A DNA stretch of 52,259 nt from Legionella sp. (GTDB lineage Bacteria; Pseudomonadota; Gammaproteobacteria; Legionellales; Legionellaceae): contig JASJHH010000176.1 in the NCBI GenBank assembly GCA_033791145.1, positions 1 to 52,259 of the forward strand. Reading direction: 5' to 3'. The position numbers are program-made. Positions 36,001 to 42,000 of this stretch are shown piece after piece. Within the stretch, counting starts at the first letter, position 1. Each line of letters begins with the position of its first letter.

Positions 36001-39000
36001 AGCACCTGCTTGCATAAGACGTTTGACGTTTTGCATGGTATCAGCAGTTGATATGCGATATGTCATAAACGGTAAGTCACCAACAATAAATTGCTTGGTT
36101 AAGCCTCGTGCGACGGATTCTGTGTGCATGACCATCATGTCCATGGTTGCCATAACGGTAGTTGGATGTCCGTGGACGAGCATAGAAACAGTATCGCCAA
36201 CTAAAACAGCATCAATACTTGAATCTGAAACCATTCGGGCAGAGGGGTAGTCATAACAGGTTACAAAGCTTATTTTTTCGTGTGCGTGTTTTTTACGCTT
36301 AAAATCGTGGATGTTCATGGTGTTTCCTTTTGTCAGTCACCGCTCAAGGTTTGAGTCGATGCATGAGGTGATCATAATGATTTGGGTTTAAAATGCAAAT
36401 AGTTGTATGATGATAATTTGTATATATTTGGAAAAATTATGGCAGCGCAATTAGATTTGAAAGCGGTTTGGGACACACCAGGCGCACATTATGGGATGCT
36501 TTTAGGTGCTATGGGAGCGCTTGAAGCGTGTTTGACGATTCCTGAAGAAAAGCAAGGTGAATATATTGCATTACTAGGTCATCCGCACTCTTTGAAAGGC
36601 GGGACCATGCAAAATAAAGTGGTGACAACGCTCGCACGTGTGTTTAGAGAACGAGGTATTCCAAGTCTGCGTTTTAATTTTCGAGGCGTTGGGGCGTCTG
36701 AAGGTGAGTATGACGCAGGGATTGGCGAAAGTGATGACATGCTTTTAATTGCAGCGCAAATCAAAGCGCTTTATCCAGAGAAAAAATTATTGTTTGCGGG
36801 GTTTTCGTTCGGTAGTTTTGTGGCTTATCGTGCAGCGGCACAAATATCAAATAGCTTATTATTAACCATTGCACCACCTGTTAATCATTTTGATTTTGAG
36901 ATGTTTGAAGTCACGCCTAAGCCATGGATATTAGTTCAAGGGGATGCGGATGAGGTGATACCCGCGGAGTTAGTTTTTGAGTTTGCAGAAAAACGCGCAA
37001 TTACAGTGCTTGAATTTGCTGAAACAACCCATTTTTTTCATGGGAAATTAATGGAATTCAAAACGCGTGTATTAGAAGCGTTAGAAGATGTACTGTCATG
37101 AAAAAGCTAATTAGTTATTATCAAGCAGCAATTAAAGCAGGTGAAATTGTTGATTCCCCCAATCAGCGGGATATTTTATCTAAGCTACAATTAATTACAG
37201 ATGCGGTGGACGCTTCACATCAAGACAAGCATTGGTGGAATGTACGTGCTCAAACAATACAGGGGCTCTATCTGCATGGTCCTGTTGGGGCCGGAAAAAC
37301 GTATTTAATGAATTTATTTTATGCGCATTTGCCTGAGGCACATAAAGAACGCTTTCATTTTCATCATTTTATGCAGCATGTGGATGAAGCATTACGTGCA
37401 CATCAGGGCCGCGCGAATCCATTGCGGCAAATTGCAAAAAAAATTGCAGAAGATGCGCATGTTTTATGTTTGGATGAATTTTTAGTAGAAGATGTGGCAG
37501 ATGCCTCTATTTTGGCGGAGCTTTTAAAAGCACTATTTGCGGAAGGCATGATTTTGGTGGTGACAGCCAATACAAAGCCGGATGATTTATATTTAGATGG
37601 CTTGCATCGGGAGCGATTTTTGCCTGCAATTGCGCTACTTAAGCAGCATTGTGGTGTGATGTGTTTGGATGATAAGCGTGATTATCGAATGGGCCGTGAT
37701 ATTGTTCCCGAGGCTTATTTTTTTCCGGTGAATAGCGCGCATGAGGCTGAAATGCTCGCGCAATTTAAGTTGTTTTCTAAAGGCGAAGAGTTACATGAAG
37801 CGGGTGAATTAACCGTGCAGAAACGACAGATTAAATATATTCGCGAAGCAGGTAAGGCCGTGTGGTTTGATTTTGATGTAATTTGTAATTTGCCGAGAAG
37901 TCAGTTGGATTATCTAGAAATCGCAGCACGGTTTGATACGGTGTTTGTCAGCCATGTGCCAGCGATTGGGGCAAATGATCCCGCGGGTGTCGTGCTTTTT
38001 ATTCGGTTTGTAGACGTGATGTATGATGCGGGCATTCGATTGGTTTTATTGGCTGAAGTGCCACTTGAAATGATTTATTTAGAAGGGCCGATGGCTAAAA
38101 TGTTTGAACGGACACTCAGCCGATTGCGAGAAATGCAGTCTCCGGACTATTTGTGATTGATTTGTATTGTTATTAACAAACTTGAGAATGATTCTTGATT
38201 GCGTTTGTGTTAAACTAGTGCTATTCAAAATAAAAGGTTGTATGCCATGCCATTAAAAACAACCGACCTAGTCGTAGGCGATAAAGTGCAATTACTTGAT
38301 CTTGGACAAACAGATTTAGACTATTGTTGCCAACTTTTTTCATTTGGATTAATGCGTGGTGTGATTGCCAACGTGGTGCGTCGTGCGCCACTGGGCTGCC
38401 CAATTCAGCTGCATATACGTGGGACAGATGTGATGCTGCGTGCAGCCGAGGCGTCAGAGCTTGTTTGGGAGCGCGTTTAATGCGATTTTTATTGGTCGGT
38501 AATCCGAACGCTGGGAAAACAACGTTATTTAATATATTGACCAATAGTTATCAGCGGGTTGGAAATTGGTCTGGTGTGACGGTTGCTGATAAAACAGGTG
38601 TGCTTCAGTTAGGCGATAAAAATATTGAGCTGGTTGATTTACCGGGTATGTACACGCTGGATGTATCTCATACAGCACGAAAAGATGAACAAATCTCAGC
38701 GCAACTAATAACAGCAGATAAAAATAATTGCTTAATTAATATCATTGATGCCACGCAACTTGAGCGGCATTTATATTTGACCAGTGAATTATTGGAATTA
38801 AAACTTCCAATGATAATTGTGTTCACGATGATGGATGAAGCCCGGAAACAGGGCATTAAAATAGACATGCAGCAATTATCTGAAACGTTAGGTTGCTCTG
38901 TGGTTGATGCCTCTCGAGATGTTGGATGCGATACTTTAATTAAAACATTAAAAAATAAAATTAAAATACCGAAAGCATTGCTGGACCCCGCGGACAAGCC

Positions 39001-42000
39001 GCGGGGCGTAGGCTCTTTGGCTCAGGAAGTAGGTTCTGAGGCTGAGCTCGCTATGATGGATGCGCGGTATACGGCCATACATGATTTTGTATTGCAAATT
39101 GAAACGCGTGAATCGGCAGTACGTGAGCGTTTTACGGCAAAAATTGATAAAGTTGTACTCAATCGCTGGTTTGCTTTTCCGATTTTTTTAAGTGTGATGT
39201 ATACGCTTTTTTTCTTGGTGATTTCTATAGGCGGTTTTTTCCAAGAGCAATTCATGCAGCTATTTGATGGTGTGCTAGTTACAGGCAGTGCAAAGCTGTT
39301 GCATCAAATAGGATGCCCTGATGGATTGGCAGCATGGCTGACAAATGGTATTGGGCTTGGACTTGCCACAACGCTTTCGTTTATTCCTGTGATGGGGGTG
39401 ATGTTTTTCTTATTAGCGTGCCTGGATGAGTCGGGATACATGGCACGTGTTGCGTTTGTCATGGACAGAGCCATGCGATTTTTAGGTTTGCCAGGTAAAG
39501 CATTTGTGCCTTTAATAGTGGGATTTGGCTGCAACGTACCTGCTGTGATGGCGACGCGGTCATTGGACTCTGAACGAGACAGGCGGCTTGTTATTCTTAT
39601 GAGTCCGTTTATGTCGTGCAGCGCAAGGCTTACGATTTATACTGTTTTTGTGGCCGCTTTTTTCCCGCATGGGGGCTATAACATTGTATTTTCGTTGTAT
39701 TTAATTGGCATTTTAATCGCAGTTTTGACAGGTTTATTATTACGTAAGACTATATTTTCAGGTCCTATTTCGCCTTTATTATTAGAATTACCTATTTATC
39801 ATGTGCCGGTTTTGCGTGTGCTATTGCGTGGAACAGCTCGAAAGCTACGTGTTTTTTTATGGCGTGCAGGCAAATTAATTGTGCCGGTGTGTATGTTGCT
39901 TGGGGTGCTGAATGCAGTTCAAATTGGCGAGCATGGGTCACTGTTGGCTTTACTCGGACAAGGGCTGCAGCCTATTTTTCAACCCATGGGTATTTCGCCT
40001 GATAACTGGCCTGCTGTGGTTGGGTTAATTACAGGCACGCTTGCAAAAGAGGTGGTGATTGGGTCGCTGAATCATATGTATGCCGGTATGGGCGGGTTGT
40101 CTCAAATGTTTGATGGTGCGGTGAGCGCTTATGCATATTTATTATTTATATTATTGTATGTGCCATGTGCGTCAACGATTGCGGTCATCAGGGCCGAGGC
40201 AGGTCGGAAGCTAATGTGGTTTTCTGTGCTTTGGTCAACGGCGCTTGCTTATGGTGTAGCTGTACTATTTTATCAATTAGGGACTATCAATCAGCATGTT
40301 GAGCAGTCTGTTGCGTGGGTATTAGGATTAAGTTTTGTATTAAGCTTGTTTGTGTTTTTGATGCGGGCAGGTACTTTACCAGGAGGCTCTCGTGCTGTTA
40401 GCGCTTCGTGATTATATTGCCAAAGAAAAATGTGCAAGCACCGAACAAATCGCACGTATTTTTCGAATTGATGTAGGTGCTTTACAGCCAATGCTTGATA
40501 TTTGGGTGGCACGAGGCGTGATAAAGCAAGAGCGTGAAGCCAAAGCATGTATCGTAGCCTGTATGGGGTGTCGTCCTAAGGCAATAAAATATTATTACTT
40601 TGTATCTAAATAGTAACGGAATTAATAATTAATAAGGAATATTAATGGTTAAGATTTTAGTGACAGGTGCTTTAGGTTTATTAGGTAGTTCATTGACGCC
40701 ATATTTGAAATCATGTGGCCATGAAGTGATTCGGCTTTCTCAAAAATCTCAAGGTGATGTGGTTGCAGATTTAACGAATTGGGAAGCGACCAAGCTTGCT
40801 TTAGATGCTGTTTTACCAGATGTTATTGTTAATCTTGCAGCCTGCACCAATGTAGATGAGTGTGAACGTAACCCACAAAAAGCGTATCTTTTGAATGTAC
40901 GTATTGTCGAACACTTGGCAAAGTGGATTCGAGAAAATAACACAGCTTGTCATTTGATTCAGATTTCAACGGATATGATTTACGATGGGAAAGGGAATCA
41001 AAAAGAAGATGAGATTATATTAAGTAATTATTATGGATTCTCAAAATATGCAGGAGAACTGGCAGCAGCGACTGTTTCGTCAACGATATTGAGAACCAAT
41101 TTTTTTGGGCCAAGTCAGTGCGAGTCTAGAACGAGTTTGAGTGATTGGTTAATAAAATCTTTATTAAACGCAGAACCAATTAAAGTGTTTGATGATGTGC
41201 AGTTTAGTCCATTATCTTTGTCGCGATTGGTGAAGCTATTAGAACATGTGATTGTGAATCCGAAAGCAGGTATTTATAATTTAGGTTCAAAAGAAGGGAT
41301 GAGTAAAGCAGATTTTGCATTTAATCTCGCGAGTGCATTAAACCTAAATACAGCGTTTATGGCGCGCGATCTTTCTGATACAATTAATTTTTCTGCATAT
41401 CGTCCTAAAGATATGTGTATGGACTCTTCTTGTTTTGAAAAAGCGTTTAATGTTTCTTTACCGACATTGCAAGAGGAAATTAAAGGGATGGAGGTTTTAT
41501 CAGTATGAGTAAATCGGATAATCATTTTGAAATTCAAGGACGAAAGATTGGTCTTGACGAACCCACTTATTTTATTGCAGATATTGCTGCGAATCATGAT
41601 GGTGAACTTCAGCGTGCGAAAGATCTTATTTATTTGGCGAAAGAAGCGGGTGCGGATGCTGCGAAGTTTCAACACTTTAAAGCAGATACGATTGTAAGTG
41701 ATGTGGGGTTTAGTGCACTTGATGGGCAAAAATCACATCAAGGGAAATGGAAAAAATCAGTTTATGAAGTATACCAAGATGCTTCTCTAAATCTTGATTG
41801 GACACCACATTTGAAAGAAACATGCGATGAAGTAGGCATTACGTTTTTTACTAGCCCGTATGCACTTTCGCTTGTTGATAGTGTTGATCCTTATGTTCCT
41901 GCATATAAAATCGGCTCGGGTGATATTACTTGGTTAGAAATCATTGAGCATATTGCGAAAAAAAATAAGCCCTATATGTTAGCCACAGGTGCATCGACAC

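What the first reader, a model, noticed from the sequence alone, without database searches (positions are those of the whole stretch)
38981..39011. The same hairpin unit sits in frame inside feoB, with compensatory stem changes, at the site where the FeoB helical domain is contracted
**Seen in the sequence.**
- The feoB copy differs from the 12191-12221 unit at only 4 of 31 positions: 6, 7, 25 and 26.
- These are two compensatory base-pair swaps (TG...CA versus CC...GG), so the 8-bp stem is preserved.
- Chance occurrence of a 27/31 match within 52 kb is very unlikely.
- The unit begins exactly at codon 168 and reads LDPADKPRGV(G), with no stop or frameshift.

**Inference from the known FeoB architecture** (G domain of about 170 aa, helical S domain of about 100 aa, then the membrane domain). 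Here only about 30 residues separate the end of the G domain (LIKTLKNKIKIPKA) from the conserved DARY motif. In my recollection of E. coli FeoB this distance is about 95 residues. Most of the helical domain therefore seems to be missing, and the repeat lies at the junction.

This parallels palindromic elements that insert into ORFs, such as Rickettsia RPEs and the MITEs reported in Coxiella. The element may have mediated a deletion or contributed a linker peptide. Alternatively it may form an intragenic RNA or DNA structure affecting feoB expression.
Basis: partly seen in the sequence, partly recalled or inferred. Interest (0 to 1): 0.7.

Follow-up and report, generated by a model that had tools for sequence, protein, structure and literature searches.

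The report
Mobile hairpin repeat inside feoB
A 31-base hairpin in the iron-transporter gene feoB is a real in-frame copy of a small repeat found across Legionella relatives, sitting harmlessly in a floppy linker; this is a known kind of event, and it did not cause the shortening of the neighbouring protein domain.

Summary
38981-39011 and 12191-12221 differ at 4 of 31 positions, which form two compensatory stem pairs. The feoB copy starts at codon 168 and reads LDPADKPRGVG.

It is a solo copy of a REP-type hairpin repeat found across Legionellales. The consensus is cCTGGAT-N-CCGCGG-ACAAG-CCGCGG-N'-ACGTAGG, and stem covariation across copies is strong.

Orthologous feoB genes show an empty site. 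The insert is a net 27 nt and is shared by a three-member clade (96.5% bootstrap). It lies in a low-confidence coil between the G domain and the one remaining helix.

The helical-domain contraction is real. However, it is shared by the whole 632-644-aa FeoB clade, mostly without the repeat, so the repeat did not cause it.

About 11% of family copies lie in frame inside genuine genes, including TrpE-G, AstA, a WipA-like phosphatase and an RlmI-like methyltransferase.

In other genomes, inverted pairs of the unit bracket a 96-aa single-domain GIY-YIG nuclease gene. This mirrors the published NTS-ssnA-NTS (Ssn) arrangement.

Intragenic REPs are already documented, including one in Coxiella burnetii feoB.

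Verdict: a new member of a known kind, of modest interest.

The parts
38980..39013 (+). Solo REP-type hairpin unit inside feoB. Arms are 38986-38993 and 38999-39006, the loop is 38994-38998, and the GTAG tail is 39008-39011.
   Evidence: Covariance model R1 scores it 55.7 bits over its full length (this copy was in the seed alignment). The DNA fold is -12.1 kcal/mol.
38981..39007 (+). The net 27-nt (9-codon) insert relative to the empty site CATTG|GTA in orthologous feoB genes.
   Evidence: DNA alignment A2 of the window, L001, L004, L006 and L008. Protein lengths are 643 against 634 aa.
38480..40411 (+). feoB, 643 aa, of a divergent short-form subfamily. It has a G domain, a single remaining helix (residues 186-207), two Gate domains and FeoB_C.
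   Evidence: Pfam hits for FeoB_N, Gate x2 and FeoB_C. PDB NFeoB matches. AF2 model. Clade alignment A1.
38238..38480 (+). feoA. Its stop overlaps the feoB start.
   Evidence: ORF list. The syntenic FeoA (PF04023) sits upstream of feoB in L001, L004 and L008.
40392..40613 (+). feoC-like ORF, overlapping the feoB 3' end.
   Evidence: ORF list. The syntenic 72-aa FeoC (PF09012) is at the same position in L002, L004, L006 and L008.
12190..12223 (+). It belongs to the G-C subfamily.
   Evidence: R1 scores it 55.1 bits. The DNA fold is -11.8 kcal/mol with z -4.3.
12137..12170 (-). Degenerate inverted partner unit. With 12190-12223 it forms a head-to-head dimer with the GTAG tails pointing outward and a 19-nt spacer.
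   Evidence: R1 scores it 40.3 bits (this copy was in the seed alignment). The stem is weakened, -4.8 kcal/mol.
12126..12262 (+). Gene-less composite element: the REP dimer plus a second hairpin (12230-12258) that matches the terminal repeat of GIY-YIG-carrying elements in other genomes.
   Evidence: blastn matches L116 at 86% over 136 nt and L104 at 88% over 93 nt, with further hits. It folds as a cruciform, -32.1 kcal/mol, z -4.6. The flanks of GIY-YIG elements are shown.

Best explanation
The feoB hairpin is a solo copy of a small palindromic repeat of the REP / NTS-like type that is dispersed through Legionellales genomes.

**The family.** The unit is about 33 nt, cCTGGAT-N-CCGCGG-ACAAG-CCGCGG-N'-ACGTAGG. 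It has an 8-bp stem kept by compensatory changes, a conserved 5' TGGAT and a conserved 3' CGTAGG. It occurs in three forms:
- as solo units;
- as inverted dimers, such as 12137-12223 in this window;
- in other genomes, as inverted pairs that bracket a 96-aa single-domain GIY-YIG nuclease gene.

The third form is the same layout as the published NTS-ssnA-NTS elements of the Ssn single-strand nuclease family. By inference, the unit is the single-stranded-DNA hairpin recognised by that nuclease, and gene-less dimers and solo units are its non-autonomous derivatives.

**The feoB event.** One copy, or a dimer later trimmed, entered the linker just after the FeoB G domain. This happened in the common ancestor of the window's lineage, P0002 and P0005. 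It survived for three reasons:
- the unit has no stop codon in this frame;
- it encodes a hydrophilic, Pro/Gly-rich peptide;
- the site is a disordered linker that already varies in length.

The contraction of the helical domain is an older feature of this whole FeoB subfamily and is unrelated to the repeat.

**Shown:** family membership, the empty site, the phylogenetic nesting, the linker location and the GIY-YIG association in other genomes.
**Inferred:** the nuclease-hairpin interaction, the way copies spread, and neutrality of the insert.
For: **Family**
Nearly all are Legionellales: 13 named Legionella species plus Tatlockia, Coxiellaceae and Berkiella MAGs.
- Flank positions left free in the pattern are conserved: T at -1 in 141/143, G at +28 in 140/143, A at +27 in 119/143.
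- Stem covariation is strong. At pair 4/22 the counts are CG 64, GC 43, AT 18, TA 11. In the seed alignment 95.7% of cells are paired, and 0 of 500 shuffles reach the observed covariation score.

**Insertion**
- The window and L001 carry 27 extra nt compared with L006 and L008.
- L004 has an inverted dimer at the same site.
- The NJ tree groups (P0005,(P0001,P0002)) at 96.5% bootstrap, with repeat-free P0003/P0004 as sister.

**Tolerance**
- In the AF2 model, residues 173-184 have pLDDT below 50 and residues 159-185 have no regular secondary structure apart from a 3-residue helical turn at 170-172.
- 18 frame hits from 145 surveyed units, about 15 distinct units once the chance Phycisphaerales hit is excluded, lie in long ORFs. 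Pfam confirms five hosts: TrpE-G, WipA-like phosphatase, RlmI-like methyltransferase, AstA and an Smr protein. The LDPADKPR frame is the commonest, with 8 cases.

**Contraction is independent**
- Alignment A1 and the motif scan show it in all short-clade members, with repeat peptides only in P0001, P0002, P0005 and P0007.

**GIY-YIG link**
- tblastn finds the 96-aa ORF in 12 loci. In 11 of them a full unit in the gene's orientation lies within 16 nt of its 3' end. The twelfth, L075, has only a degenerate, weakly scoring unit about 25-40 nt away.
- An inverted unit lies upstream in several of these loci.
- The ORF is PF01541 over residues 4-78.

**Literature**
- Chenal et al. 2025 (PMC11893778) describe NTS-ssnA-NTS.
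- Di Nocera et al. 2013 (PMC3733652) describe intragenic REPs, including one at aa 189-196 of C. burnetii FeoB CBU_1766.
Against: - No GIY-YIG gene or transposase is present in this window, so the partner in this genome is unknown.
- The unit fails the 5' head (HGTCWY) of the published SRM search pattern. 0 of 41 units fit, and only the body and tail fit.
- Membership of the 96-aa ORF in the Ssn family (cd10448) could not be tested.
- The feoB insert has no target-site duplication, and its exact boundaries are ambiguous in a variable linker.
- P0007, from another subclade, carries TPTPRGLSAGG at the same site. This is the reverse-orientation reading of the same rare C-G stem variant. A single insertion is therefore not the whole history.
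- All 8 of 8 four-fold synonymous sites and all 11 residues of the unit are identical between the window and L001. The background for feoB is 57% (p about 0.01). That hints at constraint which a neutral passenger does not explain.
Confidence: 0.8

Rival explanations
1. The hairpin has been co-opted. It persists in feoB because the DNA or RNA structure does something. It might act as a cleavage or binding site on single-stranded DNA that modulates recombination or transformation across the feo locus, or as an mRNA structure that affects stability or translation at the boundary between the G domain and the membrane domain.
For: - All 8 four-fold synonymous sites of the unit are conserved between the window and L001, against 57% across feoB. 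The only two changes are synonymous and lie in the loop.
- The unit's 11 residues are identical while the flanking linker varies.
- The same linker carries repeat-derived sequence in a second subclade in the opposite orientation (P0007).
- A different REP lies at aa 189-196 of C. burnetii FeoB.
- The local RNA fold is -34.6 kcal/mol with z -3.8.
- In Neisseria, NTS-Ssn pairs modulate transformation.
Against: - The conservation test rests on a single pairwise comparison, with p about 0.01.
- In L004 the plus-strand unit has lost two stem pairs (-5.4 kcal/mol), so the hairpin is dispensable in that lineage.
- 23 of the 27 short-clade FeoBs have no repeat.
- The hairpin has no T-run and matches no Rfam family.
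- SsnA does not act on RNA.
Confidence: 0.12
2. The repeat caused the loss of most of the FeoB helical domain, for example through recombination or excision between repeat copies. It would then mark the deletion scar.
For: - The unit lies exactly where about 50 residues are missing relative to L. pneumophila FeoB.
- Repeat-derived sequence appears in two separate subclades, in opposite orientations, with the same rare C-G closing pair. This could be read as the remains of an old dimer.
Against: - The contraction is present in all 27 short-clade clusters, and 23 of them have no trace of the repeat by either the covariance model or the peptide scan.
- The repeat-bearing clade is nested inside repeat-free lineages. 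An ancestral repeat would therefore need at least four clean losses.
- Similar contractions occur without the repeat in P0030, P0035, P0043 and P0046.
Confidence: 0.05
3. The resemblance is coincidental. LDPADKPRGVG would be an ancestral FeoB peptide that happens to look like the intergenic hairpin.
For: None beyond the fact that the peptide is conserved between the window and P0002.
Against: - 0 of 100 shuffles give two matches to the pattern.
- Orthologues have an empty site.
- The same nucleotide unit, with the same flanks, occurs in more than 100 places in other Legionellales genomes and in frame in unrelated genes.
Confidence: 0.01

Closest known systems
Intragenic GTAG-/CGTC-tagged REPs (Di Nocera, De Gregorio & Rocco 2013, PMC3733652). 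These include Rickettsia RPE-4 (CGTC-4) and the CGTC-1 REP inside Coxiella burnetii feoB (CBU_1766, aa 189-196, GSRLRGND).
   Same: - A 20-40-bp hairpin unit with an unpaired terminal tag.
- Subfamilies that differ by complementary stem changes.
- Head-to-head dimers.
- Mostly intergenic, with a minority in frame inside genuine genes, each adding about 8-11 residues.
- Encoded peptides resemble RPE-4 peptides read in the same frames: DTVVKPRYD against LDPADKPRDV, WIPWSNHGMT against WIPRTSRGT*, VIPWLDHGI against YVPRLVRGIQ.
- The same host gene, and roughly the same region of it, in another member of the Legionellales.
   Different: - The tag is CGTAG(G) in 83% of copies and CGTCG in 10%, not the CGTCAT head of CGTC families.
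- The stem is CCGCGG-based and the loop is ACAAG.
- The family was not listed for Legionella in that survey; 'Legionella' has no occurrence in its text or supplements.
- No RAYT gene was found near units.
- I could not align CBU_1766, so homology of the insertion site was not tested.
NTS / Ssn-related motifs with the Ssn family of GIY-YIG single-strand DNA nucleases (Chenal et al. 2025, PMC11893778).
   Same: - Hairpin repeats of about 30 nt with an oriented, non-palindromic head and the tail ATCYRG. Our reverse strand ends in ATCCAG.
- Inverted copies flank a gene for a single-domain GIY-YIG protein of about 95 aa (96 aa here, 94 aa for N. meningitidis SsnA).
- Many gene-less copies are scattered in the genome.
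   Different: - The head is CTACGT instead of CGTCAT, so 0 of 41 units fit the published SRM search pattern.
- Nuclease activity, family assignment (cd10448) and any role in transformation are untested for Legionellales.
- The window itself has no ssn-like gene.
REPIN-RAYT systems (Bertels & Rainey 2011, PMC3116915).
   Same: - Inverted doublets of a short palindromic unit that fold into a long hairpin.
- Persistence of copies at orthologous positions across species.
- A presumed single-copy enzyme gene flanked by the units.
   Different: - No HUH/Y1 transposase was found.
- The flanked gene is a GIY-YIG nuclease.
- On the strand that carries GTAG, the tag lies 3' of the hairpin. From my own recollection of the E. 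coli and Pseudomonas REP consensus sequences, the tag there lies 5' of the hairpin. This was not checked with a tool.
Coxiella burnetii QMITE1/QMITE2 (Wachter et al. 2018, PMC5896051).
   Same: - Small non-autonomous elements in a member of the Legionellales that overlap or extend ORFs.
- QMITE2 contains a GTAG REP.
   Different: - QMITEs are 150-400 bp, with terminal inverted repeats and direct repeats of 2-11 nt.
- They mostly affect the 3' ends of genes.
- The feoB unit is 33 nt, internal to the gene, and has no direct repeats.

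Membership tests
REP, GTAG/CGTC-tagged (Di Nocera 2013) | Unit of 20-40 bp with a stem-loop | tested here: met
   The unit is 33-34 nt with an 8-bp stem and a 5-nt loop. 95.7% of cells are paired in 41 distinct copies.
REP, GTAG/CGTC-tagged (Di Nocera 2013) | Conserved unpaired terminal tag (GTAG in more than 90% of members of most families) | tested here: inconclusive
   The tag is GTAG in 119/143 copies (83%), GTCG in 15, GTTG in 6 and GTGG in 3. On the GTAG-bearing strand the tag lies 3' of the hairpin.
REP, GTAG/CGTC-tagged (Di Nocera 2013) | Subfamilies with complementary stem changes | tested here: met
   Pairs 3/23, 4/22, 7/19 and 8/18 covary. 40 cells show changes on both sides, against a mean of 8.5 in shuffles.
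REP, GTAG/CGTC-tagged (Di Nocera 2013) | High copy number per genome | tested here: inconclusive
   There are 3 copies in the 52-kb window. No whole-genome census was possible.
REP, GTAG/CGTC-tagged (Di Nocera 2013) | Frequent inverted (head-to-head) dimers; mostly intergenic | tested here: met
   The window dimer is 12137-12223. Many minus/plus pairs lie 47-80 nt apart in the loci. About 89% of units are outside long ORFs.
REPIN-RAYT | Associated HUH/Y1 (RAYT) transposase gene flanked by the units | tested here: not met
   Clustering of 1232 ORFs from 119 loci gave no such family. The recurrently flanked gene is a GIY-YIG nuclease. The coverage is partial, being 8-kb slices only.
Ssn / SRM system (Chenal 2025) | Hairpin repeats flank a small single-domain GIY-YIG gene | tested here: met
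   This holds in other genomes, not in the window. In 11 of 12 loci a full unit lies within 16 nt of the ORF's 3' end, in the gene's orientation; L075 has only a degenerate unit further away. An inverted unit lies upstream in L092, L050, L023, L075 and L042. The ORF is 96 aa with PF01541 over residues 4-78.
Ssn / SRM system (Chenal 2025) | Fit to the SRM search pattern HGTCWYN(0-2)YYVSBRHN(0-5)WNVSBRGN(0-2)RNCYNB | tested here: not met
   0 of 41 units fit. The pattern without its head fits 26 of 41, but that version is not specific: 8 matches in the window against 11.7 in shuffles.
Ssn / SRM system (Chenal 2025) | Protein in CDD family cd10448, or a homologue of N. meningitidis SsnA at E < 1e-10; site-specific cleavage of single-stranded DNA | not testable with these tools
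   No CDD library or SsnA sequence was on hand. NCBIfam gave only a weak GIY-YIG hit. PDB gave UPF0213 proteins at E = 3e-4.
Rickettsia palindromic elements (RPE) | Palindromic repeat inserted in frame in conserved genes without disrupting them | tested here: met
   feoB is intact with all its Pfam domains. Five other host genes are confirmed.
Rickettsia palindromic elements (RPE) | Sequence membership in an RPE family (RPE-4 = CGTC-4) | tested here: inconclusive
   Only the peptides from the paper's supplement could be compared. The KPR core and WIP/VIP frames are similar. No Rickettsia DNA was compared.
MITE | Terminal inverted repeats plus a target-site duplication | tested here: not met
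   The feoB insert has no flanking direct repeat. The empty site is CATTG|GTA.
FeoB | G domain, helical S domain and membrane domain (Gate x2, FeoB_C) | tested here: met
   FeoB_N scores 5e-54, Gate 2e-41 and FeoB_C 4e-15. The S domain is reduced to one helix, residues 186-207.

The most novel reading that the evidence does not exclude
The linker after the FeoB G domain may be a recurrent landing site for REP/NTS-type hairpins in Legionellales. Three cases are known: this clade in the plus orientation, P0007 in the minus orientation, and C. burnetii with a CGTC-1 unit. The copy here may be kept by selection on its nucleotide sequence. It could serve as a site for an Ssn-like single-strand nuclease that limits recombination or transformation across the iron-uptake locus. 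Alternatively, it could be an mRNA structure that separates translation of the G domain from that of the membrane domain.
Probability: 0.1. Interest if true: 0.6.

Novelty: new member of a known kind. Interest (0 to 1): 0.35.

Why it matters
- It documents a hairpin repeat family across Legionellales. I found no description of it in the searchable literature.
- It links that family to small GIY-YIG nuclease genes, in the manner of the recently described Ssn/NTS systems.
- It shows that these units can sit in frame in housekeeping and effector genes.
- For annotation, it explains odd Pro/Gly/Arg-rich peptides in Legionella proteins, such as LDPADKPRDVG, GSRGQAAGRR, PTSRGLSAGS and YVPRLVRGIQ.
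- For FeoB biology, it shows that the G-domain to membrane linker tolerates insertions. It also shows that a whole Legionellaceae clade has a FeoB with almost no helical domain.
- It does not reveal a new mechanism.

Tried and rejected
- **RAYT or other transposase next to units.** All-against-all clustering of 1232 ORFs from the loci gave none. Only IS5-like fragments appeared.
- **MITE reading.** There is no target-site duplication at the feoB insert.
- **Known RNA family.** Rfam gave nothing at gathering thresholds over the window, and only snoRNA noise around 12 kb.
- **Intrinsic terminator.** No T-run follows the feoB hairpin.
- **Plasmid-borne copies.** The composite element has no blastn match in PLSDB.
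- **DNA for P0007.** The sample file was too large. The one metagenome scan with P0007 returned only FeoBs of 43% identity or less and was wasted.
- **Literature search for the sequence itself, in both orientations.** No paper matched.
- **Fit to the published SRM pattern.** It fails at the head.
- **Repeat-mediated deletion of the helical domain.** Rejected on phylogenetic distribution.
- **First tree attempt.** It timed out and was redone.

Full report
**1. The observation**

They differ at unit positions 6, 7, 25 and 26, giving 27/31 identity. The changes turn TG...CA into CC...GG, so both copies fold into the same 8-bp stem with a 5-nt loop (-11.8 and -12.1 kcal/mol as DNA).

A degenerate pattern covering both copies found exactly these two sites, and none in 100 dinucleotide-preserving shuffles.

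feoB runs from 38480 to 40411 and encodes 643 aa. Its start overlaps the feoA stop. The unit begins at codon 168 and reads LDPADKPRGVG.

A covariance model built later found a third, degenerate copy at 12137-12170 on the minus strand. With 12190-12223 it forms an inverted dimer.

**2. What the unit is**

I scanned one genome per bacterial species with GGAYNCCNNGGACAAGCCNNGGNRYGT. The hits fall as follows:
- 13 named Legionella species;
- Tatlockia, Coxiellaceae and Berkiella MAGs, and many 'Legionellaceae' or 'Gammaproteobacteria' MAGs;
- one MAG labelled Alphaproteobacteria;
- one evident chance hit in a Phycisphaerales genome.

Positions the pattern left free are conserved: C at -2 (110/143), T at -1 (141/143), A, G, G at +27 to +29 (119, 140 and 104 of 143). 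Sequence further out is random. The unit is therefore about 33 nt: cCTGGAT-N-CCGCGG-ACAAG-CCGCGG-N'-ACGTAGG.

The free stem positions covary strongly. Pair 4/22 is CG 64, GC 43, AT 18, TA 11, and pairs 7/19 and 8/18 change together. On 41 distinct copies, 95.7% of cells are paired and no shuffle reaches the observed covariation score.

The 'compensatory changes' between the two window copies are thus ordinary subfamily variation. G-C against C-G at the N/N' pair are both common. The C-G closing pair of the feoB copy is a rare variant, seen in 4 of 144 copies.

**3. Is the feoB copy an insertion?**

The nearest FeoB relatives form a clade of 632-644-aa proteins from uncultured Legionellaceae. 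Legionella proper has proteins of about 750 aa.

In protein alignment A1, LLDPADKPRGVGS is present only in the window and P0002 (85% identity). P0005 has a longer insert at the same place.

I fetched the DNA and aligned the region. It shows:
- The window and L001 (P0002) carry 27 extra nucleotides.
- L006 (P0003) and L008 (P0004) read straight through: CATTG|GTA.
- The model finds no unit in L006 or L008.
- L001 differs from the window only at two loop positions, both synonymous.
- L004 (P0005) has a tight inverted dimer, 1349-1382 minus and 1379-1412 plus. Its plus unit shares the rare C-G closing pair but has lost two stem pairs. About 75 further nucleotides follow.

A neighbour-joining tree on 598 ungapped columns groups (P0005,(P0001,P0002)) with 96.5% bootstrap. 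The repeat-free P0003/P0004 are sister. The simplest history is one insertion in the ancestor of these three lineages, followed by trimming or decay.

One complication remains. P0007, from a different subclade, reads TPTPRGLSAGG at the same site. The reverse complement of the window's unit translates to PTPRGLSAGS. This is very probably a reverse-orientation unit with the same C-G variant. Its DNA could not be obtained. I cannot say whether it is a second insertion or a remnant of an older dimer.

**4. The helical domain**

The contraction is real. Against L. pneumophila NFeoB (3IBY), residues 3-159 and 182-208 align with 4-163 and 228-254. So 22 residues here stand for 64 there.

The AlphaFold model (mean pLDDT 72) has the last G-domain helix at 147-158 and a single helix at 186-207 before the membrane domain. 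Between them there is no regular secondary structure apart from a 3-residue helical turn at 170-172. Residues 173-184 have pLDDT below 50.

The same contraction is present in every member of the short clade. Among the 120 homologues listed and fetched (the best 120 of at least 8000), repeat-derived peptides occur only in P0001, P0002, P0005 and P0007. Other short FeoBs outside the clade also lack the repeat.

The repeat therefore entered a linker that was already short and variable. It did not make the deletion.

**5. Behaviour of the family elsewhere**

A survey of 145 units gave 18 frame hits in stop-free frames of at least 150 codons, with at least 40 codons on each side. These correspond to about 15 distinct units once the chance Phycisphaerales hit is excluded.

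Pfam confirms genuine host genes:
- a TrpE-G fusion;
- a WipA-like phosphatase;
- an RlmI-like methyltransferase;
- AstA, which carries a dimer;
- an Smr protein, which carries a dimer.

Five of the six frames of the consensus are open. Only the frame reading TGG ATC ... ACG TAG contains a stop. The LDPADKPR frame is the commonest, with 8 cases.

This is the behaviour described for intragenic REPs and Rickettsia RPEs (Di Nocera et al. 2013, PMC3733652). That paper's supplement lists a CGTC-1 REP at residues 189-196 of C. burnetii FeoB. Its RPE-4 peptides (DTVVKPRYD, WIPWSNHGMT, VIPWLDHGI) resemble the three readings of our unit.

**6. The likely partner enzyme**

No RAYT-type transposase turned up among 1232 ORFs in the loci.

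A 96-aa ORF did recur. tblastn finds it in 12 loci. In 11 of these a full unit lies within 16 nt of its 3' end, in the same orientation as the gene. In L075 only a degenerate, weakly scoring unit lies about 25-40 nt away. An inverted unit lies upstream in L092, L050, L023, L075 and L042.

The ORF is a single GIY-YIG domain (PF01541, residues 4-78). It has 1485 relatives at E <= 1e-5. Among the 120 listed, most sit on contigs of about 1 kb, and L. pneumophila is included.

The outer flanks of these elements carry a further inverted repeat (...CAATTGTCAACA.CCCTAG). This repeat also forms the second hairpin of the window's composite at 12230-12258. The window's 12126-12262 element therefore looks like a gene-less derivative.

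This layout matches NTS-ssnA-NTS. Chenal et al. 2025 (PMC11893778) showed that such roughly 94-aa GIY-YIG proteins (Ssn) bind and cut single-stranded DNA at their flanking hairpin repeats, and that in Neisseria they modulate transformation.

The fit to that system is partial:
- The reverse strand of our unit shares the tail ATCYRG (ATCCAG).
- The head is CTACGT rather than CGTCAT, so none of 41 units fits their SRM search pattern.
- Assignment of the ORF to their family could not be tested.
- The window contains no such gene.

**7. Is the feoB copy more than a passenger?**

Between the window and L001, 57% of four-fold sites in identical codons are conserved across feoB. All 8 such sites within the unit are conserved (p about 0.01). 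All 11 residues of the unit are identical, while the adjacent linker varies.

This is suggestive but rests on one comparison. The decayed stem in L004 argues against a general requirement. The hairpin has no T-run and no Rfam match. I rate co-option at about 0.1.

**8. Verdict**

- The interpretation as an ORF-invading palindromic element that supplies a linker peptide is right.
- The link to the helical-domain contraction is coincidental.
- The element is a new member of known kinds (tagged REPs and NTS/Ssn-type repeats). I could not find it described for Legionellales.

Noticed in passing
window 38825-38836 (FeoB residues about 116-119); alignment A1: Every member of the short FeoB clade has T-M-M-D where other FeoBs have the G4 guanine-specificity motif N-M-M-D. 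The clade also lacks a loop of about 50 aa (A1 columns 613-665) and most of the helical domain. This looks like a divergent FeoB subfamily, possibly with altered nucleotide specificity.
   Followed up: partly
P0007 residues about 168-180 (no DNA available): TPTPRGLSAGG at the same FeoB linker matches the reverse-orientation translation of the window's unit (PTPRGLSAGS). P0007 belongs to a different subclade. This is either a second insertion or the remnant of an old dimer.
   Followed up: partly
L042 3987-4277; L075 6895-7183; L092 1477-1734; L109 7078-7362; L022 2617-2865 and seven further loci: A 96-aa single-domain GIY-YIG ORF is bracketed by inverted copies of the hairpin unit and an outer inverted repeat (TAGGG.GTGTTGACAATTG...). 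It looks like an Ssn-type element whose hairpin has a CTACGT head instead of CGTCAT. It has 1485 relatives in the protein database, including L. pneumophila.
   Followed up: partly
window 12126-12262: A composite of the inverted hairpin dimer plus a second hairpin (12230-12258) recurs at 86-88% identity in other Legionellales genomes (L116, L104). In L116 it lies just upstream of an IS5-like transposase ORF. It folds as a cruciform (-32 kcal/mol, z -4.6).
   Followed up: partly
L082 about 3730-3900; L045 about 2900-3050; window 39008-39037: In-frame tandem repeats start at the GTAGG tail of intragenic units. Examples are RlmI-like ...PRDVGAGYMSGDVGAGYMSGDVG... and L045 ...PRDVGGTSRVSGTGRVSG.... 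In the window's feoB, GTAGGCTCT recurs as GTAGGTTCT 21 nt downstream (VGS...VGS).
   Followed up: no
L056 1610-3281 and nine other loci: An ettA-like ABC-F ATPase gene lies next to a hairpin unit in 10 loci from different species. This suggests a repeat copy that is conserved in position across Legionella.
   Followed up: no
L030, L044, L094, L101, L110, L117 (MAG labelled Alphaproteobacteria, C8_concoct.bin.36): Six loci of one MAG labelled Alphaproteobacteria carry canonical units. Either the bin is mislabelled or the family has crossed into another class.
   Followed up: no
window 1-52259: GC skew is positive in every 2-kb window and the cumulative skew rises steadily. The whole contig probably lies on one replichore, with the plus strand as the leading strand.
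   Followed up: no
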